From Clostridiaceae bacterium (GTDB lineage: Bacteria > Bacillota > Clostridia > Saccharofermentanales > Saccharofermentanaceae), in assembly GCA_012718915.1 (NCBI GenBank), contig JAAYBI010000063.1, forward strand, positions 1 to 39,798: a stretch of 39,798 nt of DNA, written 5' to 3'. The position numbers and the translations under genes were made by a program. The notes beneath the pieces were generated by a model, which was not told the DNA's origin, did no database searches, and saw only the letters and a program-made list of their open reading frames with translations. Positions 7,705 to 19,535 of the stretch are shown piece by piece (within the stretch, counting starts at the first letter, position 1; each line of letters starts with the position of its first letter).

Positions 7705-9411
7705 CTATACAAACGAAACCGGCATAATTCCAAGATTATCCAAAATATACGGCATCAATGCACTCAATAAGTGTTCGAGCGTATCAGCCGTCTTAATATA
7801 CTCATCTAAGGAGGCTCCGAAAGGATCAGGAATACCCATGGGTGACTTCACAAGGTTGCGCAACATATCACTTGGAATATCTGCATTCTCGAAAAAAGAA
7901 AATATATCGTATGCACGATCGGCAATTTCAGGAAATGCTGCTCTCAAAAACATTGCGTGCTCACCGGTCATCGTCAAAATTAAATGCGTCGAACTCAAAA
8001 GCACCTCATCCACGCGCCGTGAGCGATGGCCGCTTATGTCTATGCCGTAAAGCTGCCGAAGTGCATCAACTGCATTCTGGGCGGCAGGACTTCCGAATGA
8101 AGCAAAGATACCTGCGGAAGAGGCGAACACTTGCACTTCCCGAGATGGATCGCTACATAATACAAATGGCCCCATTTCTTGTAATATCGCATTGAAAATC
8201 CCTTCAGCCATCGGACTGCGGCAGGTGTTCCCGGTGCAAACAAACAGAACCTGTCGACAATCCTCGTCCTCACTACCTTGTTCGAGCATACCTAATTTTG
8301 GGTCTAGATCTTTTTCCAGACCTGCGGCCTTTTCGAGTCGATTCATATAGGCAACGCCATATCCTTCACTTCCGAATCCGGGAGCAAATATTCGATCTGA
8401 GCCTGCATCATCAAGAGAGCGAAGAGCATCGTAAAGTTTTTGACCAGCCGAAAATACGTCATCCTCGGAACCATACTCATAATAAATGACTTGACCCTGA
8501 GCGACGTTTGCAAAACTTAATCTCAAGGCTTCACAAACCTCTCGAGATGCAAAAACACCCATTACCCCACCGGGACTTTCTTGTTGGAAAGAATGCATCG
8601 TTTGCTCATAGGCTTGCGACATCATTTCTTTGCCGGAATGAATGACCGTAACAGGCGACTTCGGCGCGTAATGCCTGTATTTTTGTCCCGGAGAACGAGG
8701 AACTTGTCCATTTTTTGAAACCGGATCAACGGAAACCTGTGCAAAAGACAATCCGAATTTTTTACACTCAGACAGAATCATTTCAGAGGTTATTGCGCCC
8801 GGTCTCAAAATCACCGGCCGATTGCCCGTAACATCAACAACAGTCGATTCAAGTCCGACATCACAATCACCGCCGTCAACAATGTACGAGATTCGGCCTC
8901 TCAAGTCTTTCAGGACATGTTGTGCTTTAGTCGGAGACGGACTGCCCGAACGATTGGCTGAAGGAGCTGCAATCGGAACACCCGCCATAGCGATGAGCTC
9001 GCGCGCGACAGGGTGAGCGGGTATTCTTATTCCAACCGTATCCAGACCGGCAGTCACCACGTCAGGAACTGAGCGGTTGCGTCGCATAACCAATGTAATC
9101 GGGCCGGGCATAAAAGCGTCCATCAAACATCGAGCCAGCGGTGTTATGTCGGAAACAAGCATTCGTATTTGGTCTTTCTCGGCGACATGAACGATGAGAG
9201 GATTATCGCTCGGCCGTCCTTTTGCCTTGAATATTTTGTCGATAGCATTTGTATCAAGCGCATTTGCCCCGAGCCCGTATACAGTCTCAGTGGGAAATGC
9301 AACCACCTCACCGCCACGAATCAACTCCGCAGGACGAACCAAGTCGTCCTGAGATCGATACAACGCAACTTCGGTGACAAAACCTCCTGTTTCGACGCCC
9401 TTGACTTCCAT
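7705..9411 (-). CDS. in-frame fusion: L-threonylcarbamoyladenylate synthase (Sua5/TsaC/YwlC, YrdC + Sua5 domains) joined to a YwlE-type low-molecular-weight phosphatase
   Basis: N-terminal half has YrdC motifs VAFPTETVYGLGANA and KGRPSDNPLIVHV. The C-terminal ~185 aa has P-loop VLFVCTGNTCRSPMAEG (C-X5-R with Thr after Asn, as in the B. subtilis arginine phosphatase YwlE) and a DPF general-acid loop. There is no stop between the halves. The likely real start is the ATG at 9411 (MEVKG); the ORF tool started at the GTG at 9438. Confidence 0.8.
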   Translation of the reverse strand: MEVKGVETGGFVTEVALYRSQDDLVRPAELIRGGEVVAFPTETVYGLGANALDTNAIDKIFKAKGRPSDNPLIVHVAEKDQIRMLVSDITPLARCLMDAFMPGPITLVMRRNRSVPDVVTAGLDTVGIRIPAHPVARELIAMAGVPIAAPSANRSGSPSPTKAQHVLKDLRGRISYIVDGGDCDVGLESTVVDVTGNRPVILRPGAITSEMILSECKKFGLSFAQVSVDPVSKNGQVPRSPGQKYRHYAPKSPVTVIHSGKEMMSQAYEQTMHSFQQESPGGVMGVFASREVCEALRLSFANVAQGQVIYYEYGSEDDVFSAGQKLYDALRSLDDAGSDRIFAPGFGSEGYGVAYMNRLEKAAGLEKDLDPKLGMLEQGSEDEDCRQVLFVCTGNTCRSPMAEGIFNAILQEMGPFVLCSDPSREVQVFASSAGIFASFGSPAAQNAVDALRQLYGIDISGHRSRRVDEVLLSSTHLILTMTGEHAMFLRAAFPEIADRAYDIFSFFENADIPSDMLRNLVKSPMGIPDPFGASLDEYIKTADTLEHLLSALMPYILDNLGIMPVSFV

Positions 9412-9415
9412 GCGG

Positions 9416-10504
9416 CTACTCGTCCTCCCCTGCGACACTCATTAACTGATCTGCTTTATCCGCCGAAGCTAATGCATCGATTATTTCATCGATATCTCCT
9501 GACAAAAATGCGTCAAGCTTGTATATTGTCATATTTATCCGATGATCCGATACTCTACCTTGATGGTAATTGTAGGTACGAATACGTTCGGAACGGTCGC
9601 CGGTTCCCACCTGGGACTTTCGAGCCATTGCTACTTCCCCGTGCGCTTCTGAATTCTTCATCTCCTGAAGACGGCTCATCAGGACCGCCATCGCCTTGTC
9701 CTTGTTCTTATATTGACTACGCTGATCCTGACATTGAACAACAATACCGGTTGGAATATGTGTGATTCTTATCGCAGAGTCGGTTCTGTTAACATGCTGA
9801 CCGCCGGCTCCGGATGCTCTAAACGTGTCAATGCGCAGGTCTCCCGGCTGTATGTCTACTTCCACGGCCTCTGCTTCCGGGAGAACGGCGACGGTAACCG
9901 TCGAAGTGTGAATCCTACCTGACGACTCAGTTACGGGTACCCGCTGTACGCGATGGACTCCTCTTTCATACTTGAATCGACTGAATGCTCCGTTTCCCTC
10001 AACCGAAAAAATGATCTCTTTGTAACCGCCAAGTTCAGTCGGACTGCTGTCAATTTGTTCTACCGTCCACCCTCGGCTCTGAGCATACGCCGAATACATT
10101 TCGAAAAGCACTCCACAGAAAAGAGCCGCCTCATCCCCACCGGCACCGGCTCTGATTTCGATGATGACCGATTTCTGATCGTTGGGATCCTTGGGCGCAG
10201 TCAATGCCCTGAGCCTTTCGTTTTCGGTCGTCAGAACGCTATTGAGTATTTTCAATTCTTCGCGAGCCATCTTACGCATTTCTTCATCGTCTGCTAATTC
10301 AAACATCTCTTGCGTCTGGTCTATTTCTGATTCAAGACGTTCCACTTCATGAATTGCTCCGACAATCGGCTCCAACTCTGCCAATTCTTTGTTGAGTTTC
10401 TGATAACGACTCGGGTCCGAAAAGACAGCCGGATCCGCCAGCGTAGCAATAATTTCATCGTATCGATGTCTGATGTCGTTTAACTTAGTATCAAGGAGAC
10501 TCAT
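9416..10504 (-). CDS. prfA: peptide chain release factor 1
   Basis: GGQ motif (SGAGGQHVNRTDSAIRITHIPTG). 362 aa. GTGAGGT RBS. Confidence 0.93.
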   Translation of the reverse strand: MSLLDTKLNDIRHRYDEIIATLADPAVFSDPSRYQKLNKELAELEPIVGAIHEVERLESEIDQTQEMFELADDEEMRKMAREELKILNSVLTTENERLRALTAPKDPNDQKSVIIEIRAGAGGDEAALFCGVLFEMYSAYAQSRGWTVEQIDSSPTELGGYKEIIFSVEGNGAFSRFKYERGVHRVQRVPVTESSGRIHTSTVTVAVLPEAEAVEVDIQPGDLRIDTFRASGAGGQHVNRTDSAIRITHIPTGIVVQCQDQRSQYKNKDKAMAVLMSRLQEMKNSEAHGEVAMARKSQVGTGDRSERIRTYNYHQGRVSDHRINMTIYKLDAFLSGDIDEIIDALASADKADQLMSVAGEDE

Positions 10505-10530
10505 TGTAACCTCACAAATTTTTCTTTATT

Positions 10531-10562
10531 ACGTGTATATATAATACACGATTTCACGATTT
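10531..10562. promoter_or_regulatory. palindrome CGTGTAT-ATATA-ATACACG (10532-10550) followed by direct repeat CACGATTT x2, in the divergent prfA / NifU-like intergenic region
   Basis: Perfect 7-bp inverted arms around an AT centre. It overlaps the probable -10 of the prfA promoter on the minus strand. Candidate operator. Confidence 0.3.
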
Positions 10563-10573
10563 TTGTAGTTCGC

Positions 10574-10604
10574 TTATGGATAATCTGATATCTTTTGCTA
10601 TAAT
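10574..10604 (+). promoter_or_regulatory. candidate sigma-A promoter for the NifU-like/GGGtGRT operon (weak -35, extended -10 TGcTATAAT at 10596-10604)
   Basis: TATAAT with upstream TG. About 70-nt leader containing the small hairpin GGCGG-TG-CCGCC (10632-10643) before RBS AAAGGGGA. Confidence 0.35.
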
Positions 10605-10675
10605 AAACGCTGGTGTGAATTTAAGGTTGAAGGCGGTGCCGCCAGACACCGACTTTATTGAAAGGGGATACATAC

Positions 10676-11368
10676 ATGCAGAATACACACGAAGTAGAAC
10701 AAATGACTTGTATCGCAAGAGGACCGAACCACGGTCCGGCTCCAATCCCGGAAGAAGGCAAGTGGGTTCAGGCCCGCGAAATTAAGGACATTTCCGGCTT
10801 TACCCACGGCGTCGGCTGGTGTGCGCCTCAGCAAGGAACATGTAAGTTGTCTTTGAACATCAAAGACGGCGTGATTCAGGAGGCTTTGGTTGAGACCATC
10901 GGTTGTACCGGAATGACTCATTCAGCCGCAATGGCCGGTGAGATTCTCCCGGGCAAAACCATTCTTGAAGCACTGAATACGGACCTTGTTTGCGATGCGA
11001 TCAACACAGCAATGCGCGAACTCTTCCTTCAGATTGTTTACGGCCGTTCCCAGTCCTCATTTTCTGAAGGCGGTCTTCCGATCGGCTCTTCTCTTGAGGA
11101 TCTCGGAAAGGGGCTTCGCTCTACAACAGCGACCATCTTCTCTACCGTTGAGAAAGGCCCTCGCTATCTTGAGTTAACAGAAGGATACATTACGTCATTA
11201 GCTCTGGACAAGGACAATCAGATCATCGGCTATCAATTTTTGAAGCTTGGGCCGATGCTTGAGCAGATCAAAAAAGGTACGGATGCCAACGAAGCCTATC
11301 AGAAGAATCTCGGAACTTACGGTCGTTATGCAGACGCTGTCCGCTATATCGATCCGAGACACGAATAA
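10676..11368 (+). CDS. IscU/NifU-N-like three-cysteine Fe-S scaffold-domain protein with ~100-aa C-terminal extension (function unknown)
   Basis: Core GWCAPQQGTCKLSLNIKDGVIQEALVETIGCTGMTHSAAMAGEILPGKTILEALNTDLVCDAI aligns to IscU GAPACGD...GCGSAIASSS...HC, and the three Cys are conserved. Real start is the ATG at 10676 after AAAGGGGA. The tool used the TTG at 10658. Confidence 0.65.
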   Translation: MQNTHEVEQMTCIARGPNHGPAPIPEEGKWVQAREIKDISGFTHGVGWCAPQQGTCKLSLNIKDGVIQEALVETIGCTGMTHSAAMAGEILPGKTILEALNTDLVCDAINTAMRELFLQIVYGRSQSSFSEGGLPIGSSLEDLGKGLRSTTATIFSTVEKGPRYLELTEGYITSLALDKDNQIIGYQFLKLGPMLEQIKKGTDANEAYQKNLGTYGRYADAVRYIDPRHE

Positions 11369-11386
11369 GTGTGGGAGGAGAATAAT

Positions 11387-12382
11387 ATGCCACTTTTTGA
11401 AAGTTACGACAGAAGAATTGCGCAGATTAATGCCGCGTTGAACGCTCACGGAATTGCATCCATAGAGGAAGCAAAAGCCATCTGCGATGCTAAGGGGATT
11501 GACCCCTACACCATCACCAAGGAAACCCAACCCATTGCTTTTGAGAACGCGTGCTGGGCATACGTCGTCGGCGCTGCAATCGCAATCAAGAAGGGGATTA
11601 AAGTTGCCTCTGAAGCAGCTGAAGCCATTGGTATCGGCCTTCAGGCTTTCTGTATCCCGGGTTCTGTTGCAGACGACCGCAAGGTTGGTATCGGACATGG
11701 CAATCTTGCCGCCATGCTTCTTCGCGAAGAAACCAAATGTTTCGCATTCGTTGCCGGCCATGAGTCTTTTGCAGCAGCAGAAGGCGCAATCAAAATTGCA
11801 CAATCCGCCAACCAGGTTCGTACTGAACCGCTTCGGGTTATCTTGAACGGATTAGGCAAGGATGCCGCATTCATTATCTCAAGAATCAACGGTTTTACTT
11901 ATGTAAAGACTCAGTTTGATTACGCGTCAGGTAAGGTTGCGGTGGTCAGCGAGACCGCTTATTCCGAAGGCGACCGCGCGAAGGTCCGTTGCTACGGCTC
12001 GGACGATGTGCGTGAAGGCGTTGCCATCATGCACCTCGAGGGCGTTGATGTTTCCATCACAGGCAACTCGACAAATCCGACCCGCTTCCAGCACCCCGTT
12101 GCAGGAACATATAAAAAAGAATGCACTGAATTGGGTAAGAAGTACTTCTCTGTTGCTTCCGGCGGCGGTACCGGTCGTACTCTGCACCCGGACAATATGG
12201 CTGCAGGCCCTGCCTCTTACGGCATGACAGATACAATGGGACGCATGCACTCTGATGCCCAGTTCGCAGGTTCCTCCTCCGTTCCGGCGCATGTTGAGAT
12301 GATGGGCTTCCTTGGTATGGGTAACAACCCGATGGTCGGTGCGACCGTTGCGGTTGCAGTTGCAGTAGAGCAAGCCGGCTAA
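11387..12382 (+). CDS. GGGtGRT-motif family protein (Pfam GGGtGRT, unknown function)
   Basis: Contains SGGGTGRTLHPDNMAAGPASYGMTD. About 330 aa, typical of the family. RBS GGGAGGAG 8 nt before ATG MPLFESYD. Translationally coupled to the upstream gene (18-nt gap). Confidence 0.7.
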   Translation: MPLFESYDRRIAQINAALNAHGIASIEEAKAICDAKGIDPYTITKETQPIAFENACWAYVVGAAIAIKKGIKVASEAAEAIGIGLQAFCIPGSVADDRKVGIGHGNLAAMLLREETKCFAFVAGHESFAAAEGAIKIAQSANQVRTEPLRVILNGLGKDAAFIISRINGFTYVKTQFDYASGKVAVVSETAYSEGDRAKVRCYGSDDVREGVAIMHLEGVDVSITGNSTNPTRFQHPVAGTYKKECTELGKKYFSVASGGGTGRTLHPDNMAAGPASYGMTDTMGRMHSDAQFAGSSSVPAHVEMMGFLGMGNNPMVGATVAVAVAVEQAG

Positions 12383-12404
12383 TCTACTCCTTCTTATAAG
12401 ACAA

Positions 12405-12445
12405 ACACCGCTTCGGAGAAACTCGAAGCGGTGTTTTCGTTTTCT
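12405..12445 (+). terminator. rho-independent terminator (11-bp stem ACACCGCTTCG/CGAAGCGGTGT + TTTCGTTTTCT)
   Basis: Perfect inverted repeat followed by a T-run directly after the GGGtGRT stop. Possibly bidirectional with the convergent DUF1836 gene. Confidence 0.8.
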
Positions 12446-12474
12446 GCGAGAATCGCAACAAAAAAATGAAAAGA

Positions 12475-13104
12475 CTACTTGCCAATAGCATCCATTATTT
12501 TTTGTGCCATCATGACACGAACTCGCGCCTCAAGAGAAAGCCTTAGCGCAATATCCGCCATCATACGACGCCGGTCTTTCGCCGGAACGCTACCCTCTTG
12601 AGATGATCTCTTGAGCGGCTCAAGCTCGTTAAGCACTTGAAGACGGGCATCTTTAAAAGCTTCTTCTTGAATTTGAAGATAAAGCTCGTACAACTCCTGC
12701 TCCGTGCTACCTTGAAGTGCCGCATCCGTCAAAGTCCCCAAATCCGAAATAGATACCACAGGTTTCAGCGCGCATACCAATGAAATCAGAGCCAGATGGT
12801 CCGGCGTATACTTTTTGTCAATCGGACGCGGAAGCACGCCATCCTTCGTGTAATTATTTATCATTGCCTTGGTCAGAATCTTGTCATCTTCAGATCGTTT
12901 ATAAAAATTCAATTGCCGATCCATAAGTGTTAAGACCTGATCCATGTATAGACCGATGTCCGGAAGTTTCTCCCAATCCAACAATGCGGTATGATCCAGC
13001 TCTCTGAGCCAATTTTCAATATCGCTGACGCGTTCATCCGACACAAGAATATTCTTCCTGGGCGACTGAATATTTTGAATCACAGGTGTATCATTCTTTG
13101 GCAT
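12475..13104 (-). CDS. DUF1836 family protein (MerR-like HTH-related, unknown function)
   Basis: Motif ILTKAMINNYTKDGVLPRPIDKKYTPDHLALISLVCALKPVVSISDL is typical of DUF1836. GGAGG RBS. Confidence 0.5.
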   Translation of the reverse strand: MPKNDTPVIQNIQSPRKNILVSDERVSDIENWLRELDHTALLDWEKLPDIGLYMDQVLTLMDRQLNFYKRSEDDKILTKAMINNYTKDGVLPRPIDKKYTPDHLALISLVCALKPVVSISDLGTLTDAALQGSTEQELYELYLQIQEEAFKDARLQVLNELEPLKRSSQEGSVPAKDRRRMMADIALRLSLEARVRVMMAQKIMDAIGK

Positions 13105-13211: not shown

Positions 13212-13427
13212 TTATTTGTCTTTTTCATCATTTTTCTCAATTGACTTACAGGATTTTTCGAGAGCACTTCGCTTGAGTACCATGCGACGACCGCATGTTT
13301 GACAGCGCAGTGTAACATCGCCTGCAACACGAACGAGCGACCAAGTGGTTCCGCCGCAAGGATGTGGCTTGCGAAGTGTAACAATATCTCCGGCCTCAAA
13401 GGGATATAGAAAAAACGACGCATTCAT
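13212..13427 (-). CDS. DUF951 family small protein (YyzM-like)
   Basis: GDIVTLRKPHPCGGTTWSLVRVAGDVTLRCQTCGRRMVLKRS matches the DUF951 pattern. Probable start MNASFF at 13427. The listed ORF extends further upstream and overlaps prmC. Confidence 0.55.
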   Translation of the reverse strand: MNASFFLYPFEAGDIVTLRKPHPCGGTTWSLVRVAGDVTLRCQTCGRRMVLKRSALEKSCKSIEKNDEKDK

Positions 13428-13449
13428 TTCAACATTCCCCCGCAATAAA

Positions 13450-14409
13450 CTATGAACGAGTTTCTTGATAACGACCCAGTGTGACGCGGTCATTTCCACC
13501 GAAATCTTTTAGACAAGTCACGTTCAAAAATCCTGCGTTTGTCATCAATTCCGAGATGGATTCTCTCTGGTCGAAGCCATGTTCAAAGGCAAGTATACCA
13601 TTATTCGAAAGATACTTAGGCACCTGCTCGAGTATTCTCCGATATAGCTGAAGTCCGTCTCTTCCTCCTTTGAGAGCAAGCTCAGGTTCATGAATTCGAA
13701 CTTCCGGCATAGCACCTTCGAATGCCGCATCTGAAATATAGGGCGGATTAGATACGATGAAGTTTGCCTTGCCGTATGTTTTGAGGAAATACTCTTCTTC
13801 AGGAAACAAGTCACACATTTCAAGCACGATTTGGTCTGGCTCTGAGGCTTCTTTTATGTTCCGTTTCGCATAGCTTGCAGCCTCTTCAGATATCTCAGTC
13901 AACACCATTTTATAAGATAGTATATACCGACTGAGAATATTGGCAATCGATATCCCGATACAACCGCTTCCGGTGCATAGATCCATGACAACGAGATGAT
14001 CGATTTTTGAGTCGACTTTAAGTGAAGTCAGATCTTCGTATCTTCCGGCGAGAAAACTATCGTCTATTCCCAACGAATAAAGCGAGGCTCCTACGAGTAT
14101 TTCACTGTCGGGTCGCGGAACGAGCACTCCCGGACCGACAAAAAAACGATCCCGATAAAAAAATACCTCACCCAAAAGATATGCTAAAGGCTCACGCCTT
14201 ATTCGACCGGACAAAATCTTTTCAAAGCGAAGCAAGACATCCTCCGATAAAGCCTCGGATACTTCGATTTCTTTGTCAAAATAAATATTGGATCGAGCTT
14301 TTTCATTTAGGACAGACAAAATATAAATCAACTCATCTTCGGGATAATCAATGCCCGCAGACTCGAGCCGCTTCACTTGCTCCGTTTTCCAATCGAACCA
14401 CTTCACCAC
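13450..14409 (-). CDS. prmC: release factor glutamine N5-methyltransferase PrmC/HemK
   Basis: SAM-binding DLCTGSGCIG and catalytic NPPY (FIVSNPPYI). Confidence 0.9.
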   Translation of the reverse strand: MVKWFDWKTEQVKRLESAGIDYPEDELIYILSVLNEKARSNIYFDKEIEVSEALSEDVLLRFEKILSGRIRREPLAYLLGEVFFYRDRFFVGPGVLVPRPDSEILVGASLYSLGIDDSFLAGRYEDLTSLKVDSKIDHLVVMDLCTGSGCIGISIANILSRYILSYKMVLTEISEEAASYAKRNIKEASEPDQIVLEMCDLFPEEEYFLKTYGKANFIVSNPPYISDAAFEGAMPEVRIHEPELALKGGRDGLQLYRRILEQVPKYLSNNGILAFEHGFDQRESISELMTNAGFLNVTCLKDFGGNDRVTLGRYQETRS

Positions 14410-15626
14410 CGGTCTTCCTCTGCATTCTCAGGCAAGACCGCCTGCATAGCAGCAATGGCGACCTCGAGCATCCGATCATCAGGCTCTCGAGTCGTAAACC
14501 TCTGTAACCACAAACCGGGCTTTGAAATCATTCGACCCACCAGTGAATCTTCATGTCGTCCGGCCAAACGCAATACTTCATAAGAAATACCGCCGACCAG
14601 AGGCACCAAAGCTAGGCGAACCAGAAGATTAATCCACCAGATGTTAACCCCTAACCACTTGATTAGGAATACACTGGCAACGCTAAAAACAAGAATCGAA
14701 ATAACGACAACAATAAACATAAATGCGGTACCACAACGGGGATGTGCTTTAGTGTGTTTTCGAATATTCTCCACAGTGAGAGGTTCCCCGGCTTCGTAGC
14801 AAGCAATTGTCTTGTGTTCTGCACCATGATACATCCATACTCTGGCAATATCCTTGATCTTCGAAGTAAGTATCAAATATGTCAAAAATATAACGATTCG
14901 CAAAATGCCCTCGATAACATTCATTCCGACGGCAATACCAATATTATCAGCACGATCCGGATTGAATATGCCCTCAATGATATCGACGATGAGGCGAGGC
15001 AACAAGATGAACAAGAGGACGCTGAACAAAATGCCAAGGATCGCTGAAATAACAATCATCACATTGACATGACGATCCAAAAACTGGTCCAGTCGGCTTT
15101 TAGGCTTCTTCTCCGGCTTTATGCTATCGCTCGAAATCGGCGTCTGAGCCGCCAGTCGAGCCGCATCCGCTTGGTCAGTATCTACAATTTGGTCCGGCTG
15201 ATCCGGAAAAATATCAGAGACTTCCGGAGCAGCGCCCATCTCTTTCATTTCGGATAACTCCGGAGCGACATGTTCCACGTCGACAGCCTCCGGTTCCTCT
15301 TTGTCCGCATCAATATCCGATATCTCAGCAGATTTCATCAGCGCGCCGGTCCCGGTCACAATCTGCCTGAAAAACCGAATGCTTCCACGAATAAATGGGA
15401 CCTTATCGAAAAATATAATCTTACGGTCTTGCTTGACCTCTTCGACATAAATCGAACCATCCGGTTTACGTATTGCCATAGCAATTTTCGTCGGACCGAA
15501 CATCATTAAGCCTTCAATTAGTGCCTGCCCTCCGATTGTTGTCTTCTTGCTCGACGGACAGAACGAGGATGTATTACGCGACACATCCTTCTCTATATTA
15601 TTTGGCTTTGCCACATCTTTATCCAT
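14403..15626 (-). CDS. DUF1385 family membrane protein (YqhQ-like) with an ~80-aa acidic low-complexity insertion
   Basis: GGQALIEGLMMFG and HGAEHK motifs. Three or four TM helices. Insertion DIDADKEEPEAVDVEH...KPEKKPK between the soluble N-domain and the TM region. Overlaps the prmC start by 7 nt. Confidence 0.6.
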   Translation of the reverse strand: MDKDVAKPNNIEKDVSRNTSSFCPSSKKTTIGGQALIEGLMMFGPTKIAMAIRKPDGSIYVEEVKQDRKIIFFDKVPFIRGSIRFFRQIVTGTGALMKSAEISDIDADKEEPEAVDVEHVAPELSEMKEMGAAPEVSDIFPDQPDQIVDTDQADAARLAAQTPISSDSIKPEKKPKSRLDQFLDRHVNVMIVISAILGILFSVLLFILLPRLIVDIIEGIFNPDRADNIGIAVGMNVIEGILRIVIFLTYLILTSKIKDIARVWMYHGAEHKTIACYEAGEPLTVENIRKHTKAHPRCGTAFMFIVVVISILVFSVASVFLIKWLGVNIWWINLLVRLALVPLVGGISYEVLRLAGRHEDSLVGRMISKPGLWLQRFTTREPDDRMLEVAIAAMQAVLPENAEEDRW

Positions 15627-15747: not shown

Positions 15748-16956
15748 TCATTTAATCGAAGTCACTATTTCCGGAAATGGCGCTATCGCGCGATCTAATA
15801 TGCCATTTGCATATGCAATAAATACACCGTAATTGGTAATCGGGATTTGACGTTGAGTCGAAAGCGTCGTTCGATAATGCATTTCTTTTTCGTTGAGCAT
15901 ACAGCCACCACAATGAATAATCATGTCGTAAATATCAATTCGTTTGGGGAAGGTCGATCCTGATGCCCACTCGAGTTGAATACCCTCACTCGCAACCATT
16001 TTTATCCACTTCGGAATCTTTACAGTTGCGATATCATCCATTTGCTTATGATGTGTACATGCTTCCACAATCAATACACGGCTCCCTTGCTTCAGGTTTT
16101 TTATTTGTCGAACGCCTGATACCATTTCTTTTAAATTCGACTTCTGCCTGGCAAATAGTATCGAAAATGAGGTTAACGGAACCTCGGCAGAAATTCGTTG
16201 CTCGACATACCCAAAAGCTTGGGAATCTGTAATGACAATATTCGGAGGATTCTTAAGCTTAGAAATGACGCGTTCGAGCTCGGTTTCACGAGTCACGACG
16301 GGAATCGCTCCAATGTCCAGAATATCTCTGATGGTTTGTTGCTGAGGCAAAATCAGCCTGCCTTTAGGAGCAGCCGAATCTATTGGTGTAACTAAGACCG
16401 CCGTATCGTATGGTCTTAAAACCCCACTTATCAGCGACGGTGATTCGGCTTGACGACCGGACGACTCGATAATTCGTTGTTTTAGTTTTGATATGCCTTC
16501 GATATTTTTCGCGCTAACAAACACAGGGGAAAAAAGCATGGTAATATCATCGACCTGGAAGCCGGTATCCGATTTATTCACGACAACAGAAAAGGGGACT
16601 TTCCGTTCCCGAATTTCGTCAATTAGCGACTGTTCTAAGGTCGTAATGCCTTTCTCATCTGTTACCACTAAAACATAATCCGTCCGCCTTAGTACTTCTC
16701 TAGATTTTTCTACTCGCATTGTTCCAAGTTCGCCGTCATCGTCGAGTCCGGCGGTATCAACAAAGACTACCGGTCCGATCGGCAACATCTCCATCGCCTT
16801 GGAAACAGGATCTGTCGTCGTGCCCGCCACATCTGATACAACGGACGCGCTCTGCCCCGTAAGCGCATTTACAAGTGAAGACTTTCCGACATTTCTTCTT
16901 CCGAATATGCCGATGACAAACCTCTTGGAAATCGGGGTTGCATTTATATCTTGCAT
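15748..16956 (-). CDS. hydF: [FeFe]-hydrogenase maturation GTPase HydF
   Basis: G1 GRRNVGKSS, G4 NKSD. C-terminal Fe-S ligands CTHH...HCGGC. Confidence 0.85.
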   Translation of the reverse strand: MQDINATPISKRFVIGIFGRRNVGKSSLVNALTGQSASVVSDVAGTTTDPVSKAMEMLPIGPVVFVDTAGLDDDGELGTMRVEKSREVLRRTDYVLVVTDEKGITTLEQSLIDEIRERKVPFSVVVNKSDTGFQVDDITMLFSPVFVSAKNIEGISKLKQRIIESSGRQAESPSLISGVLRPYDTAVLVTPIDSAAPKGRLILPQQQTIRDILDIGAIPVVTRETELERVISKLKNPPNIVITDSQAFGYVEQRISAEVPLTSFSILFARQKSNLKEMVSGVRQIKNLKQGSRVLIVEACTHHKQMDDIATVKIPKWIKMVASEGIQLEWASGSTFPKRIDIYDMIIHCGGCMLNEKEMHYRTTLSTQRQIPITNYGVFIAYANGILDRAIAPFPEIVTSIK

Positions 16957-16992: not shown

Positions 16993-18081
16993 TCAATCTG
17001 ATTTTCGCTCTCGAAAATCGAAATGATCCCCGCGAGACATTTCCGCACTTAACCCTAGATCGTGAATCTGATTTATCAGAAACCTGACGTTCTCCGCTGC
17101 TTCCGTCGACGATGACAGTTTTCCGTCATATATGGCATAGGCGTCTCGATATTTCTGCGGAGTCAGGCACGGCATCACAACATTTGCACCCGCGCGAAAT
17201 GCATCTGCTCGATGCTGAATGTCACATGAGGCCAGTGCTGTCGTGGCCGGGAGCATCACATTGGGAAGCATTATTCGGCACAACGCCGTCAAAACCAAAG
17301 TATGATCGACTGAACCATAAGGAAATTTCGCGAACCTCGTATTGATATGGGGACGAAACGGACCTAATCCAATCATGTGCGGAGAGAGCTCCCTTAAGAA
17401 CAGAAAGTCTTCCGTCAATGTATCAACACTTTGATAAGGAGATCCGACCATCAATCCGGCACCAACCTGATATCCAATCCGTTTCATCGTCTCAAGGCTC
17501 TTCCGGCGTATTGAGAAGTGCTGATTGGCATCGTGTAGTTTTGAAAAATGTTCTTCATCAGCGGTCTCATGCCTTAAAAGAAATCGGTCCGCCCCGGCTT
17601 GATAAAGTTGTAAATACTGTTCCGAATTCAGAACACCAACACTTAGAGTCAATGCGATATCCGAAAATAAACTTTTGATACTGAACACGAGCTCGGAAAG
17701 ACGGCCGGCCAAATAGTACGGATCTTCTCCGCTTTGCAAGACAAAGCTTCGAAATCCCATAGCATACCCGTTACGGATAACTTGAACGATCTCTTGTTCT
17801 GTCATCCGATAACGAACCGCCTTCCTGTTCCGCACTGAAAGACCACAATAGAAGCAGTCGTTTCGACAAAAACTACTAAACTCAATCAAACCGCGCAGAA
17901 AAACTCTGGGACCGTCATTTGAGTCGCGCACTCGCCTCGCCATAGAATAAAGATCTTCTTTATCCTCATTTGTCGACATATTCAGGTAGAAATCAATCAG
18001 ATCTTTCATCTCACTTCTATCTGCACCTAACAACAAGGCCTCATTCGGAACATCTTTATTTTTCATAAGGTTTACCCTCAA
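16993..18081 (-). CDS. hydE: [FeFe]-hydrogenase maturation radical-SAM protein HydE
   Basis: CRNDCFYCGL radical SAM motif. BioB-like. About 350 aa. Confidence 0.8.
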   Translation of the reverse strand: MRVNLMKNKDVPNEALLLGADRSEMKDLIDFYLNMSTNEDKEDLYSMARRVRDSNDGPRVFLRGLIEFSSFCRNDCFYCGLSVRNRKAVRYRMTEQEIVQVIRNGYAMGFRSFVLQSGEDPYYLAGRLSELVFSIKSLFSDIALTLSVGVLNSEQYLQLYQAGADRFLLRHETADEEHFSKLHDANQHFSIRRKSLETMKRIGYQVGAGLMVGSPYQSVDTLTEDFLFLRELSPHMIGLGPFRPHINTRFAKFPYGSVDHTLVLTALCRIMLPNVMLPATTALASCDIQHRADAFRAGANVVMPCLTPQKYRDAYAIYDGKLSSSTEAAENVRFLINQIHDLGLSAEMSRGDHFDFRERKSD

Positions 18082-18083
18082 AA

Positions 18084-19535
18084 TCAGAATCGAAGATCGC
18101 GCTCTCCCTTTTCAATTCGACGGATCATCGCCTGAGTCTTCTCAAAGGCATCTCCTTTCAGATTATTTAGATGCTCTGCAAGAACACGTTCGCCCTCCAA
18201 TCGGGTCTCATCTGTCGCATAATCAAGAAGATACTCCTTGAAAGTCAAAACTGCATTTGGAATACAGTAATTGTGTACGAATTTCGATTTTGCGACCTTC
18301 ATGAAATGCTCTCCGGTCCGGCCTGCGCGATAACAAGCCGTGCAAAATGACGGAATATTTCCCATTTCACAAATCTGACCTACAACATCATCGAGAGAAC
18401 GTGAATCTCCGATAGTGAATTGCTCTTTGTCCGGCAACATATTTGCATGTTTTGCGTGTGAGTAAGCACCCACACCAATTCTCGTCCCTGCATCTATCTG
18501 CGAGACACCCAGAGGAATAACTGACTCTCTGACCTGAGCCGATTCTCGTGCAGTGCAAATCAACCCGGTATAAGGCACCGACAGACGCAGAATCGCAATT
18601 ATGCGTTTGAAATCATCATCGTTGACAGCATAATCCGGATTGAGAGAAAATGGAGTATCCGTCGCCGGAGTAATCCTCGGAAAAGAAATGGTATGCGGAC
18701 CAACACCGTTAAAATGCTTTTCGAGGTGCATCGTATGCATCAATAGAGCCATCAATTCAAACCGCCAATCATATAAACCAAAAAGCACGCCCAGTCCACA
18801 GTCATCAAGACCCGCCTTGAGCGCACGATCCATGGCATACAGTCTCCAACGATAGTGCCCTTTAATTGTTCCTTGTGGATGAACGCTTTCGTAAGTCTTT
18901 CTGTGGTATGTCTCTTGGAAGACCTGGAAGGTTCCGATGCCGACTTCCTTCAGTTTTTTTAGTTCGTCGATCGCCAACGGAGCACAATTAATATTCGCTC
19001 GTCGAATTTCACCGTTTTCCGTCTTGACTTCATAAACTTTCCGAACTGATTCACACATGAAATCCACGTTAGTCTTCGGAGATTCCCCATAGACCAGTAC
19101 CGTTCGTTTTTGCCCCTCATCAATCATTATTTGAACTTCTTCTTCAATTTCCTGCATATTCAATGTCTTACGATGAATTGCGACATTACTGCTCCGAAAA
19201 CCGCAATACTTACAATTATTCGCACACTCATCGCTGATATAGAGCGGCGCAAAAAATACAATTCGATCACCATATACTTCCTTCTTGAGTTCGAATGCCA
19301 CTCCAAACATCTCTTGAATGGTGTCCGGATCGTTATTACCGATTAGAATTGCCATTTCATCCAAATCTAATCTTATGCAATTTCGTGATTTCTCCAGGAC
19401 TCGGCGCACCTCATCACGTCCGGGATTTTTATTAGCATCTAGTAGTGAATGGATTAACTCCTCATCAATAAAATCTTTCTCCATGGCATCCAATACATCG
19501 AACTCATCTTGATATTTGTTTAAATAACGCATCAC
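18084..19535 (-). CDS. hydG: [FeFe]-hydrogenase maturation radical-SAM protein HydG
   Basis: CANNCKYCGF radical SAM motif. ThiH-like with C-terminal CTACYR...C cluster motif. 483 aa. Confidence 0.85.
   Translation of the reverse strand: MMRYLNKYQDEFDVLDAMEKDFIDEELIHSLLDANKNPGRDEVRRVLEKSRNCIRLDLDEMAILIGNNDPDTIQEMFGVAFELKKEVYGDRIVFFAPLYISDECANNCKYCGFRSSNVAIHRKTLNMQEIEEEVQIMIDEGQKRTVLVYGESPKTNVDFMCESVRKVYEVKTENGEIRRANINCAPLAIDELKKLKEVGIGTFQVFQETYHRKTYESVHPQGTIKGHYRWRLYAMDRALKAGLDDCGLGVLFGLYDWRFELMALLMHTMHLEKHFNGVGPHTISFPRITPATDTPFSLNPDYAVNDDDFKRIIAILRLSVPYTGLICTARESAQVRESVIPLGVSQIDAGTRIGVGAYSHAKHANMLPDKEQFTIGDSRSLDDVVGQICEMGNIPSFCTACYRAGRTGEHFMKVAKSKFVHNYCIPNAVLTFKEYLLDYATDETRLEGERVLAEHLNNLKGDAFEKTQAMIRRIEKGERDLRF

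What the first reader, a model, noticed from the sequence alone, without database searches (positions are those of the whole stretch)
10531..12445. Oppositely oriented NifU/IscU-like + GGGtGRT operon inserted between prfA and prmC, 3 kb from a hydEFG cluster
A self-contained plus-strand operon with its own promoter, coupled genes and a strong terminator sits between the normally adjacent prmC and prfA genes, on the opposite strand to them. Gene 1 keeps the three cluster-ligating cysteines of the IscU/NifU N-domain scaffold but adds a ~100-aa C-terminal domain. Gene 2 is a GGGtGRT-family protein, for which I know of no experimentally established function. An Fe-S scaffold-like protein tightly coupled to an uncharacterised conserved protein, in an anaerobe, close to the [FeFe]-hydrogenase H-cluster maturation genes hydE/F/G, suggests a dedicated metallocluster assembly or delivery module. 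A palindromic operator-like site lies in the divergent promoter region.
Basis: partly seen in the sequence, partly recalled or inferred. Interest (0 to 1): 0.72.

Follow-up and report, generated by a model that had tools for sequence, protein, structure and literature searches.

The report
Conserved iron-sulfur protein pair, glycolysis-linked
This is a real two-gene operon for a NifU/IscU-like iron-sulfur protein and a "GGGtGRT" protein, a pair that is nearly unchanged across anaerobic bacteria, has no known function, and is linked by its gene neighbours to sugar breakdown (glycolysis), not to hydrogenase or iron-sulfur cluster assembly.

Summary
A plus-strand bicistronic operon (promoter 10577-10604, gene 1 10676-11368, gene 2 11387-12382, terminator 12403-12436) sits opposite to prfA and prmC, 3.4 kb from hydF-hydE-hydG. 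Gene 2 is a full-length PF14057 GGGtGRT protein. Gene 1 is only a distant IscU-fold protein, below every curated cutoff. It has four invariant Cys, no Asp39 and no LPPVK.

The pairing is universal: 155 of 155 informative loci, plus a diverged clade. Both proteins are extremely conserved (75-88% across six phyla, against 61% for RF1 in the closest relative). GGGtGRT has no solved structural relative.

The recurrent neighbours are glycolytic genes: pfk, pyk, eno and pgk-tpi-gpmI, in about 10 independent arrangements against 3 for 13 control genes. In the diverged clade they are phosphoglycerate mutases (5 of 5 contexts). Published data agree: strong repression by iron limitation, abundance like glycolytic enzymes, and a pfkA-like transposon phenotype in B. 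thetaiotaomicron.

Best reading: an abundant two-subunit Fe-S protein that acts on a phosphorylated glycolytic intermediate. The reaction is unknown.

The parts
10532..10550 (.). Perfect inverted repeat CGTGTAT-ATATA-ATACACG in the prfA/gene 1 intergenic region, about 27 nt upstream of the -35 hexamer. Probably not an operator.
   Evidence: Read from the sequence. It is the only repeat with 7-nt arms in the region. 9.7% of 5000 dinucleotide shuffles contain one (1.8% if at least 3 G/C per arm is required). It is not present upstream of relatives L001, L012 or L031.
10577..10604 (+). Sigma-70-type promoter-like site: TGGATA, 16-nt spacer, TATAAT with an extended -10 TG.
   Evidence: 10 of 12 hexamer matches. 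It is the only such site in 10400-12600.
10634..10651 (+). Small hairpin (CGGTG...CACCG) in the roughly 65-nt 5' leader. No known RNA family.
   Evidence: Rfam search of 10400-12600 at E<=1 found nothing. The leader is not conserved in relatives apart from the ribosome-binding site.
10676..11368 (+). Gene 1: 230-aa protein. It has an IscU-fold N-domain (about residues 35-120) with invariant His44, Cys49, Cys56, Cys77 and Cys106, and a conserved family-specific C-terminal region of about 120 aa. It is the predicted Fe-S subunit.
   Evidence: - Pfam NifU_N 17.6 bits, below the gathering cutoff of 22; all 15 diverse members match weakly.
- hhalign against E. coli IscU: 90% probability, E = 1.5e-6, residues 50-100 to 35-86.
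- Invariant residues come from the cross-phylum alignment A2.
11387..12382 (+). Gene 2: 331-aa GGGtGRT protein (PF14057). It has an N-terminal helical domain (1-112), a Rossmann-like alpha/beta domain, and glycine-rich C-terminal loops that include GGGTGRT (259-265). It has one invariant Cys (202) and five invariant His.
   Evidence: - Pfam 642 bits. It is 100% identical to a database protein named GGGtGRT protein.
- AlphaFold2 pLDDT 88, pTM 0.89; the loop 261-279 is low-confidence.
- No PDB sequence match and no second Pfam family.
12403..12446 (+). Intrinsic terminator: 14-bp stem (7 G-C pairs), 6-nt loop and a T-rich tail.
   Evidence: RNA fold -24.9 kcal/mol (centroid -21.9), z = -4.8, with 0 of 200 shuffles folding as well.

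Best explanation
The operon encodes the two subunits of one abundant, iron-dependent Fe-S protein that works in or next to glycolysis in anaerobes.

The proposed mechanism is inferred, not shown. The IscU-fold subunit (gene 1) holds a permanently bound Fe-S cluster through its four invariant cysteines and/or His44; it does not hand the cluster on. The GGGtGRT subunit (gene 2) binds a phosphorylated ligand in a pocket formed by its Rossmann-like domain and its invariant Gly/Ser/Thr/Arg/His-rich loops. Cys202 and the conserved His residues are candidate catalytic or bridging residues. Together the subunits convert or sense a phosphorylated glycolytic intermediate between fructose-6-phosphate and pyruvate. 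The phosphoglycerate node is the most likely point.

The specific reaction is unknown. My ranked guesses are:
1. Ferredoxin-linked oxidation of glyceraldehyde-3-phosphate to 3-phosphoglycerate.
2. An Fe-S dehydratase acting on 2-phosphoglycerate.
3. A pyrophosphate-related step of PPi-dependent glycolysis.

What is shown: gene identity, obligate pairing, extreme conservation, absence of scaffold hallmarks, and the neighbourhood statistics. What is inferred: complex formation, cluster binding, the nature of the substrate and the reaction.
For: 1. Obligate pair. 155/155 informative loci have gene 1 directly upstream of gene 2 on the same strand, with a median gap of about 21 nt. This also holds in the diverged clade.

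2. Extreme constraint on both proteins.
- GGGtGRT is 74.5-100% identical across Firmicutes, Bacteroidota, Spirochaetes, Fibrobacteres, Desulfobacterota, Gammaproteobacteria and Coriobacteriia.
- The nearest neighbour is from the same phylum in 68/80 cases, so inheritance is mostly vertical.
- Against the closest relative L001, GGGtGRT is 88% and gene 1 80% identical, compared with RF1 61%, Sua5 50% and PrmC 32%.
- At 50% clustering the family collapses to essentially one cluster.

3. Glycolytic neighbours of canonical pairs.
- PPi-PFK is divergent about 200 bp upstream in Bacteroidales (L016, L105, L141; 1.7 kb away in L078).
- ATP-PFK is divergent in L130/L133 (PF00365, 206 bits). L175 has a PFK with the TSGGD...PKTIDND motifs.
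- Pyruvate kinase starts 24 bp downstream on the same strand in L148, which also has a divergent enolase.
- Pyruvate kinase is divergent in L129, 3.5 kb away in L076, and 5.5 kb away in L091/L097.
- Enolase is divergent in L014/L015.
- L172 has pgk-tpi-gpmI-gene1-gene2 on one strand. L066 has the same genes convergent. L151 has gap-pgk-tpi 3 kb upstream.
- Sources.
- Thirteen housekeeping control genes give only 3 hits outside the window's own lineage.
- Binomial P is 4e-5 at gene level and 2e-3 at locus level. Poisson P is about 1e-4 for immediate neighbours.
- PFK was the single most frequent Pfam family among 124 immediate neighbours in the metagenome loci. That set was fetched later from a second collection.

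4. Diverged clade (55% identical). All 5 contexts with enough DNA place the pair with an ApgM phosphoglycerate mutase that passes NCBIfam's equivalog cutoff (499.7 against 489). A His_Phos_1 (dPGM/PspA-like) protein is present in all five and an HTH_3 regulator in three. GpmI (L088, L089) and a HAD hydrolase (L094, L095) occur in single lineages.

5. Literature.
- BT0173-4 is repressed 11-12.8-fold in iron-deprived B. thetaiotaomicron (PMC10434189).
- The GGGtGRT protein rises up to 7.1-fold with iron in C. pasteurianum (PMC5395762).
- Transposon insertions in BT0173-4 came out of the same screen as pfkA: they relieve glucose-dependent inhibition of Cur (2-fold) and do not impair growth on glucose (bioRxiv 10.64898/2026.04.10.717545).
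- 'NifU' is among the most abundant rumen proteins, next to GAPDH, TPI, PGK and PPDK (PMC6043501).
- NifU and GGGtGRT co-vary with PEPCK, PPDK, FBA and GAPDH (PMC7035244).

6. Not a scaffold. There is no Asp39 equivalent and no LPPVK, four invariant Cys are present, and no cysteine desulfurase is a partner.
Against: - No biochemical datum exists. Complex formation, cluster binding and substrate are all inferred.
- Only about 10% of canonical loci have a glycolytic neighbour. Most pairs stand alone among unrelated genes (176 Pfam families among 133 neighbours).
- Part of the glycolysis hypothesis came from the same data set that was then counted. Only the metagenome loci were fetched later. There, P is about 0.01 by my hand calculation, which was not run as a tool.
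- The control panel is small (13 genes, 3 hits).
- The B. thetaiotaomicron phenotype is modest (2-fold). Loss of any abundant Fe-S protein could produce it indirectly.
- The gene 1 structure model is poor (pLDDT 53).
- GGGtGRT shows only generic Rossmann-like similarity, and hhalign finds no homology to PFK.
- The canonical glycolytic enzymes are, as far as I know, all present in these organisms, so no step is visibly missing.
Confidence: 0.45

Rival explanations
1. Dedicated Fe-S or metallocluster assembly and delivery module. Gene 1 would be a specialised scaffold and GGGtGRT its partner. Together they would serve particular clients such as [FeFe]-hydrogenase maturation.
For: - Gene 1 has an IscU-like fold with conserved cysteines.
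- The pair lies 3.4 kb from hydF/E/G in the window and 0.56 kb upstream of hydG-hydF-hydE in Treponema L022/L023.
- It lies 1.9 kb downstream of sufB-sufD-sufS-sufU in Collinsella.
- It is restricted to organisms rich in Fe-S enzymes.
Against: - hyd and suf neighbours each occur in one lineage out of about 160 loci. That is no more than the control genes give (P about 0.3).
- In Treponema a strong terminator separates the pair from hydG.
- L001 shares the window's synteny but has no hyd genes in the fetched DNA, which extends 4.6 kb past DUF1385.
- No cysteine desulfurase or chaperone partner recurs.
- Gene 1 lacks Asp39 and LPPVK and has a fourth invariant Cys.
- The operon is repressed, not induced, by iron limitation.
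- Its abundance matches glycolytic enzymes, which is unusual for an assembly factor.
Confidence: 0.12
2. Redox-stress or detoxification protein of anaerobes, for example an O2, H2O2 or NO reductase, or an iron or Fe-S reservoir. It would be abundant and iron-dependent like rubrerythrin or the hybrid-cluster protein.
For: - Found in anaerobes and facultative anaerobes.
- Very abundant and listed beside rubrerythrin in proteomes.
- Repressed together with hcp under iron limitation.
- Has a Rossmann/flavodoxin-like domain that could bind a nucleotide or flavin.
- Dispensable for growth on glucose in vitro.
Against: - Neither neighbour census lists a recognisable stress-defence family among its most frequent families.
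- It does not explain the recurrent pfk, pyk, eno and pgm neighbours, or the phosphoglycerate-mutase operons of the diverged clade.
- No flavin- or NAD-binding Pfam signature is detected.
Confidence: 0.15
3. Regulatory sensor and not an enzyme. The Fe-S cluster would report iron, redox or oxygen status. The GGGtGRT subunit would bind a glycolytic metabolite or enzyme such as PFK or PK and tune carbon flux.
For: - Divergent arrangement with pfk, pyk and eno, the control points of glycolysis.
- Mutants alter a glucose-signalling read-out (Cur/Roc) without a growth defect.
- Extreme surface-wide conservation would fit a protein with many conserved partners.
Against: - Abundance of about 1.5% of the identified rumen proteome is far above that of typical regulators.
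- About 90 residues of GGGtGRT are invariant, which looks like an elaborate active site.
- No DNA-binding or known signalling domain is detected.
Confidence: 0.13

Closest known systems
GGGtGRT protein family (Pfam PF14057) with its adjacent 'nitrogen-fixing protein NifU' gene, e.g. Bacteroides thetaiotaomicron BT0173-BT0174
   Same: - Full-length family match at 642 bits.
- Same gene order, spacing and pairing in every locus examined.
- 83% (gene 2) and 71% (gene 1) identity to a Bacteroides sp. genome locus (L024).
   Different: Nothing essential; the window's operon is an ordinary member. Its position between prfA and prmC is specific to its lineage (shared with L001 and L031). The family has no characterised member, so it supplies a name and no mechanism.
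IscU / NifU N-terminal Fe-S scaffold proteins (PF01592, TIGR01999, TIGR03419)
   Same: - hhalign probability 90% over residues 50-100.
- The GC(S/T)G cysteine corresponds to IscU Cys63.
- A cysteine sits at the start of the C-terminal helix (Cys106).
   Different: - Scores lie below every curated cutoff.
- The first ligand Cys37 and Asp39 are replaced (Gln52, Gly54), with two other invariant Cys flanking the loop.
- No LPPVK chaperone-binding motif.
- An extra conserved region of about 120 aa.
- No cysteine desulfurase partner.
- Iron regulation is opposite to what I would expect of an assembly system.
Two-subunit Fe-S enzymes of anaerobic central metabolism, such as L-serine dehydratase alpha/beta or class I fumarate hydratase (functional analogy only)
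   Same: - Two co-encoded subunits.
- Iron-dependent and abundant in anaerobes.
- Act on small hydroxy or phospho acids near the phosphoglycerate/pyruvate node.
   Different: No sequence or fold relationship was detected. The analogy rests on gene context and regulation, not homology.
Phosphofructokinase / NAD kinase / diacylglycerol kinase superfamily (GGDG(T/S) phosphate-loop kinases)
   Same: - A beta-strand followed by a G-G-x-G-T loop (VASGGGTGRT).
- T. brucei PFK is the top Foldseek hit (probability 0.87).
- PFK genes are frequent neighbours.
   Different: - The Foldseek hit is not significant (E = 0.03, TM 0.21).
- hhalign probability is 0.1%.
- I reject this as homology.

Membership tests
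GGGtGRT protein family (PF14057) | Full-length match to the family HMM above the gathering score (27 bits) | tested here: met
   642 bits, E = 2e-193, residues 4-330 on profile positions 1-327 of 327.
GGGtGRT protein family (PF14057) | Conserved GGGtGRT sequence motif, and a length of about 330-345 aa (length range as I recall the Pfam description) | tested here: met
   GGGTGRT is at residues 259-265 and is invariant in 60 aligned members, including the diverged clade. The protein is 331 aa.
GGGtGRT + NifU-like gene pair (as in B. thetaiotaomicron BT0173-4) | A gene for a 220-240-aa IscU-like protein lies immediately upstream on the same strand | tested here: met
   18-nt spacer in the window. 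The arrangement holds in 77/77 and 78/78 informative loci, in the diverged clade, and in Vibrio, Persicobacter and Collinsella.
IscU/NifU N-terminal scaffold (PF01592; TIGR01999 IscU; TIGR03419 NifU_clost; TIGR01994 SufU) | HMM score above the curated cutoff | tested here: not met
   - NifU_N: 17.6 bits against 22.
- NifU_clost: 24.5 against 187.9.
- IscU: 19.8 against 192.4.
- SufU: 16.5 against 92.5.

IscU/NifU N-terminal scaffold | Three cluster-ligand cysteines at the canonical positions (E. coli Cys37, Cys63, Cys106) | tested here: inconclusive
   - Cys77 aligns with Cys63.
- Cys37 aligns with Gln52, with invariant Cys49 and Cys56 flanking the loop.
- The region around Cys106 is not aligned by hhalign, though an invariant Cys106 precedes a 'DAI' helix as in IscU. 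The comparison beyond IscU residue 86 uses the E. coli sequence as I recalled it.

IscU/NifU N-terminal scaffold | Labile-cluster and chaperone features: Asp39 next to the first Cys, and the LPPVK HscA-binding motif | tested here: not met
   Asp39 aligns with Gly54. No LPPVK-like motif occurs in any of 15 diverse members.
IscU/NifU N-terminal scaffold | Genomic partnership with a cysteine desulfurase (IscS/NifS/SufS) | tested here: not met
   None in the window. No recurrent neighbour family of that kind appears in 160 loci. sufS is nearby only in Collinsella.
IscU/NifU N-terminal scaffold | Assembles a transient Fe-S cluster and transfers it to apo-proteins | not testable with these tools
   This needs anaerobic reconstitution and transfer assays.
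[FeFe]-hydrogenase maturation accessory (HydE/F/G-linked) | Conserved genomic linkage with hydE, hydF and hydG across lineages | tested here: not met
   Linkage exists only in the window and in Treponema L022/L023, where a terminator intervenes. A hydE-like gene lies 6.7 kb away in L168. There is none in L001, which shares the window's synteny.
Glycolysis-associated gene set (functional grouping, not a homology family) | Recurrent neighbourhood with glycolytic genes above the background of control genes | tested here: met
   About 10 lineage-collapsed arrangements with pfk, pyk, eno or pgk-tpi-gpmI, against 3 hits for 13 controls. P ranges from 2e-3 to 4e-5. All 5 diverged-clade contexts contain phosphoglycerate mutases.

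The most novel reading that the evidence does not exclude
The NifU-like/GGGtGRT pair is a previously unrecognised, near-universal enzyme of anaerobic sugar metabolism, with a fold absent from the PDB. One possibility is an iron-sulfur, ferredoxin-linked or dehydratase-type alternative for a step between triose phosphate and phosphoenolpyruvate. Another is the missing pyrophosphate-linked step of PPi-dependent glycolysis. If so, textbook glycolysis in gut, rumen and sediment anaerobes lacks one abundant component.
Probability: 0.3. Interest if true: 0.9.

Novelty: new member of a known kind. Interest (0 to 1): 0.66.

Why it matters
- The pair is one of the most conserved and most abundant proteins of unknown function in strict anaerobes. 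It is about 80% identical across phyla and around 1.5% of the identified rumen proteome. It is present in Bacteroides, Prevotella-group bacteria, Clostridia, Treponema, Fibrobacteres and others.
- Assigning it a function would fill a gap in models of gut and rumen fermentation.
- It would also explain part of the iron-sparing response of Bacteroides.
- It could reveal new Fe-S chemistry on a fold with no solved relative.
- This analysis moves the working hypothesis from Fe-S or hydrogenase maturation to glycolysis. It also names tractable tests in an organism (B. thetaiotaomicron) where transposon mutants already exist.

Tried and rejected
- Operator hypothesis: the 19-nt palindrome is not conserved in relatives and is not rare in shuffles. 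No shared upstream motif beyond the ribosome-binding site was found in 71 upstream regions.
- Riboswitch or leader RNA: no Rfam match at E<=1.
- Horizontal transfer as the reason for the high identity: mostly rejected. Sequences group by phylum (68/80) and within-phylum identity exceeds between-phylum identity.
  - Hits in 'plasmids' are non-mobilizable chromids or chromosome pieces. 'Phage' hits are unannotated faecal virome contigs.
  - Integrases are nevertheless frequent neighbours.
- PFK-superfamily homology of GGGtGRT: rejected by hhalign.
- A first neighbour clustering produced a false 'conserved neighbour'. It turned out to be long antisense ORFs over the operon in high-GC genomes.
- Natural gene 1-gene 2 fusions: the long 'representatives' are assembly chimeras or frameshifts, not fusions.
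- The afdb50 fold library was unavailable.
- The metagenome scan meant to enlarge the diverged clade was saturated by canonical members. I used it as a second sample fetched from another collection.
- gap is missing upstream of pgk in L172 and L066. This reflects the lineage's SpoU-pgk arrangement and is not informative.


Full report
**What is in the window.**
- Region 10531-12445 contains a compact plus-strand transcription unit. It is flanked by minus-strand genes: prfA (9416-10504) on one side, and DUF1836 (12475-13104), DUF951 (13212-13499), prmC (13450-14409) and DUF1385 (14403-15626) on the other. hydF (15748-16956), a hydE-like radical-SAM gene (16993-18081) and a hydG-like gene (18084-19535) follow.
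- The unit has a promoter-like site, TGGATA-16-TATAAT with an extended -10 TG, at 10577-10604.
- It has a 65-nt leader with no Rfam match.
- Gene 1 (10676-11368, 230 aa) and gene 2 (11387-12382, 331 aa) each follow a strong ribosome-binding site and lie 18 nt apart.
- A 14-bp terminator hairpin sits at 12403-12436, at -22 to -25 kcal/mol with z = -4.8.
- The rest of the window is chromosomal housekeeping: ftsH, hpt, tilS, dnaB, rplI, ssb, sua5, rho, mreB, leuS.

**Identity of the two proteins.**
- Gene 2 is a textbook member of Pfam PF14057 'GGGtGRT' (642 bits, full length). It is 100% identical to a database protein from a Clostridiaceae MAG.
- Gene 1 is only distantly IscU-like. Pfam NifU_N gives 17.6 bits, below the cutoff of 22, and the NCBIfam IscU, NifU and SufU models fall far below theirs.
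- A profile of 15 members from seven phyla matches IscU chains in the PDB only at E around 3e-4. hhalign against E. coli IscU gives 90% probability over residues 50-100.
- The cross-phylum alignment shows invariant His44, Cys49, Cys56, Cys77 and Cys106.
- Only Cys77 corresponds positionally to an IscU ligand (Cys63). IscU Cys37 and Asp39 align with Gln52 and Gly54, and there is no LPPVK motif.
- About 120 further residues are conserved and specific to this family.
- I read this as an IscU fold turned into a permanent cluster-binding subunit. That is an inference; no cluster has been demonstrated.

**GGGtGRT has no characterised or solved relative.**
- The AlphaFold2 model is confident (pLDDT 88, pTM 0.89). 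It has an N-terminal helical domain (1-112), a Rossmann-like alpha/beta domain, and C-terminal glycine-rich loops. The GGGTGRT loop (261-279) is the only disordered part.
- Foldseek finds nothing below E = 0.03.
- No PDB sequence matches, and no second Pfam family appears in 60 members.
- About 90 positions are invariant across the canonical and diverged clades. They include one Cys (202), five His, and many Gly, Ser, Thr and Arg. That composition is typical of phosphate-binding sites, which is again an inference.

**Pairing and conservation.**
- In 80 loci from species-representative genomes, the gene 1 homologue lies directly upstream on the same strand in all 77 with enough upstream DNA.
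- A second set of 80 metagenome loci gives 78 of 78.
- The pairing also holds in Vibrio, Persicobacter and Collinsella and in a small diverged clade only 55% identical.
- Canonical GGGtGRT proteins are 74.5-100% identical across Firmicutes, Bacteroidota, Spirochaetes, Fibrobacteres, Desulfobacterota, Gammaproteobacteria and Coriobacteriia. Within-phylum means are 85-87% and between-phylum means 77-84%.
- The nearest neighbour is from the same phylum in 68 of 80 cases. The pattern is therefore mostly vertical descent under extreme constraint, with a few transfers or mis-binned contigs.
- An internal yardstick: against the closest syntenic relative (L001), GGGtGRT is 88% and gene 1 80% identical, while RF1 is 61%, Sua5 50%, DUF1385 48% and PrmC 32%.
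- In a library clustered at 50% identity the family collapses to essentially one cluster plus fragments.

- hydG-hydF-hydE follows the pair in two related Treponema loci, but a 10-bp-stem terminator separates them.
- sufB-sufD-sufS-sufU precedes the pair in Collinsella, with a transposase in between.
- L168 has a hydE-like gene 6.7 kb away.
- That is one lineage each, which is what control genes give by chance.
- L001 has the same prfA-operon-DUF951-prmC-DUF1385 synteny but shows rho and mreB, and no hyd genes, in the remaining 4.6 kb of the locus.
- No cysteine desulfurase recurs among the neighbours.
- In B. thetaiotaomicron the operon (BT0173-4) is repressed 11-12.8-fold by iron limitation (PMC10434189). 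In C. pasteurianum the protein rises with iron (PMC5395762). My inference from general knowledge is that this is the behaviour of abundant iron-consuming proteins, not of assembly machinery.
- The assembly reading is not excluded, but I rate it at about 0.12.

**What the neighbours do say.** Most canonical pairs stand alone among unrelated genes: 176 Pfam families among 133 immediate neighbours. The recurrent exceptions are glycolytic.

| Neighbour | Arrangement | Loci |
|---|---|---|
| PPi-dependent PFK | divergent, about 200 bp upstream | L016, L105, L141 (Bacteroidales); 1.7 kb away in L078 |
| ATP-PFK | divergent | L130/L133 (Clostridia; PF00365, 206 bits) |
| PFK with the signature motifs | divergent | L175 (Oscillospiraceae) |
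| Pyruvate kinase | starts 24 bp after gene 2, same strand; enolase divergent upstream | L148 |
| Pyruvate kinase | divergent | L129 |
| Pyruvate kinase | 3.5 kb and 5.5 kb away | L076; L091/L097 |
| Enolase | divergent | L014/L015 |
| pgk-tpi-gpmI | same strand, directly upstream of gene 1 | L172 |
| pgk-tpi-gpmI | convergent | L066 |
| gap-pgk-tpi | 3 kb upstream | L151 |

- In L172 the pair occupies the position that, from my knowledge of Firmicute glycolytic operons, eno usually takes.
- The table is drawn.
- PFK was the most frequent Pfam family among the 124 immediate neighbours of the second (metagenome) set.
- Thirteen housekeeping genes from the window, used as controls, hit only three loci outside the window's own lineage.
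- P is 4e-5 at gene level, 2e-3 at locus level after collapsing lineages, and about 1e-4 for immediate neighbours.
- These tests are partly post hoc and the control panel is small, so I treat them as strong suggestion and not proof.

**The diverged clade points the same way.**
- Five contexts with enough DNA (L081-84, L085, L088, L092, L094) were examined. Their GGGtGRT proteins are 63-79% identical to the clade's reference member P0267.
- All five have the operon [NifU-like]-[GGGtGRT]-[membrane-anchored protein of 317-332 aa].
- All five also carry an ApgM-type phosphoglycerate mutase that passes NCBIfam's equivalog cutoff (499.7 against 489) and a His_Phos_1 protein of the dPGM/PspA kind. 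An HTH_3 regulator is recorded in three of them.
- One lineage adds a GpmI phosphoglycerate mutase, and one adds a HAD hydrolase.

**Literature.**
- No paper in the searchable library assigns a function. Papers from 2024 and 2025 explicitly call the protein uncharacterised.
- The indirect data fit a central-carbon role. In a B. thetaiotaomicron screen for loss of glucose-dependent inhibition of the regulator Cur, insertions fell in three loci: pfkA, an M16 peptidase operon, and BT0173-4. The BT0173-4 effect was 2-fold, with normal growth on glucose.
- In rumen metaproteomes 'nitrogen-fixing protein NifU' ranks among the most abundant proteins, next to GAPDH, TPI, PGK and PPDK.
- NifU and GGGtGRT proteins co-vary with PEPCK, PPDK, FBA and GAPDH, not with ribosomal proteins.

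**Best explanation and its limits.**
- I conclude that the operon encodes a two-subunit, iron-dependent Fe-S protein functionally tied to glycolysis. It most likely acts on a phosphorylated intermediate around the phosphoglycerate node. The IscU-fold subunit would carry a fixed cluster and the GGGtGRT subunit the ligand site (confidence about 0.45).
- The exact reaction is open. Candidates are ferredoxin-linked glyceraldehyde-3-phosphate oxidation, an Fe-S dehydratase on 2-phosphoglycerate, a pyrophosphate-related step of PPi-dependent glycolysis, metabolite repair, or a flux sensor.
- Rivals are the assembly module (0.12), a redox-stress or iron-storage protein (0.15) and a regulatory sensor (0.13).
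- A tempting link to the PFK/NAD-kinase 'GGDGT' loop superfamily (top Foldseek hit, not significant) is rejected by hhalign.

**Novelty and score.**
- The window's operon is an ordinary member of a catalogued family and gene pair, so formally it is a new member of a known kind.
- The family itself is a major unsolved case: ubiquitous in anaerobes, more conserved than release factor 1, as abundant as glycolytic enzymes, and without any solved or characterised relative.
- This analysis adds five things: the universality of the pairing, the loss of scaffold hallmarks in gene 1, rejection of the hydrogenase and Fe-S assembly link, a reproducible glycolysis neighbourhood signal, and the phosphoglycerate-mutase operons of a diverged clade.
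- Mutants already exist in a tractable organism, so the hypothesis is directly testable. Interest 0.66.

Noticed in passing
L081-L095 (e.g. L085:2046-8580; L088:391-7412; L094:842-6141): A small diverged GGGtGRT clade (55% identical to the window protein) keeps the NifU-like partner. It is embedded in operons with ApgM and sometimes GpmI phosphoglycerate mutases, a His_Phos_1 phosphatase/mutase, a HAD hydrolase, an HTH_3 regulator and an uncharacterised membrane-anchored protein of 317-332 aa. Sporulation-type genes (YodL, SpoVT-like) are nearby in two loci.
   Followed up: partly
immediate neighbours of the pair in L001-L080 and L096-L175: Tyrosine recombinase/integrase genes are unusually frequent next to the operon: 7 of 133 immediate neighbours in genome loci and 3 of 124 in metagenome loci. 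This hints that the operon often borders integrated elements, although its phylogeny is mostly vertical.
   Followed up: partly
L178:1-7993 (Collinsella aerofaciens NZ_OY725717.1); also L161, L169: In Collinsella the pair lies just downstream of sufB-sufD-sufS-sufU with a transposase in between. It is the only lineage found with an Fe-S assembly operon next to the pair.
   Followed up: yes
window 7705-9438 (-): The Sua5/TsaC threonylcarbamoyl-AMP synthase is fused to a C-terminal low-molecular-weight phosphotyrosine-phosphatase domain (Sua5_yciO_yrdC + Sua5_C + LMWPc, 577 aa).
   Followed up: no
window 23163-25373 (-): The Rho termination factor has an N-terminal extension of about 340 aa before its RNA-binding domain (736 aa in all).
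   Followed up: no
window 11366-11389: Gene 1 and gene 2 are in the same reading frame, separated only by TAA and 18 nt. Read-through or a stop-codon mutation would fuse them. No genuine natural fusion was found among the database proteins inspected.
   Followed up: partly
L065 versus L052 and L076: The pair on a contig binned as Eggerthellaceae is 97-98% identical to that of Butyricicoccus porcorum and a Clostridiales MAG. This is either a mis-binned contig or a very recent transfer.
   Followed up: no
L176 (Vibrio sp. THAF191d, 1.85-Mb replicon listed as a plasmid) and L177 (Persicobacter psychrovividus pPP1): The pair also occurs on large secondary replicons of marine facultative anaerobes or aerobes (62/71% and 70/77% identity). 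The family is therefore not strictly confined to obligate anaerobes.
   Followed up: partly
window 13212-13499 (-) and 13450-14409 (-): The DUF951 ORF as listed overlaps the 3' end of prmC by 50 nt. Its Pfam match begins only at residue 34, so its real start is probably further downstream. DUF1385, prmC, DUF951 and DUF1836 look like one minus-strand operon.
   Followed up: no
L022, L031, L062-L067 and other high-GC loci, antisense to the operon: Long spurious antisense ORFs (up to 754 aa) run across the gene 1-gene 2 operon in high-GC homologues. They first appeared as a false 'conserved neighbour' cluster and are a trap for automated gene callers.
   Followed up: yes
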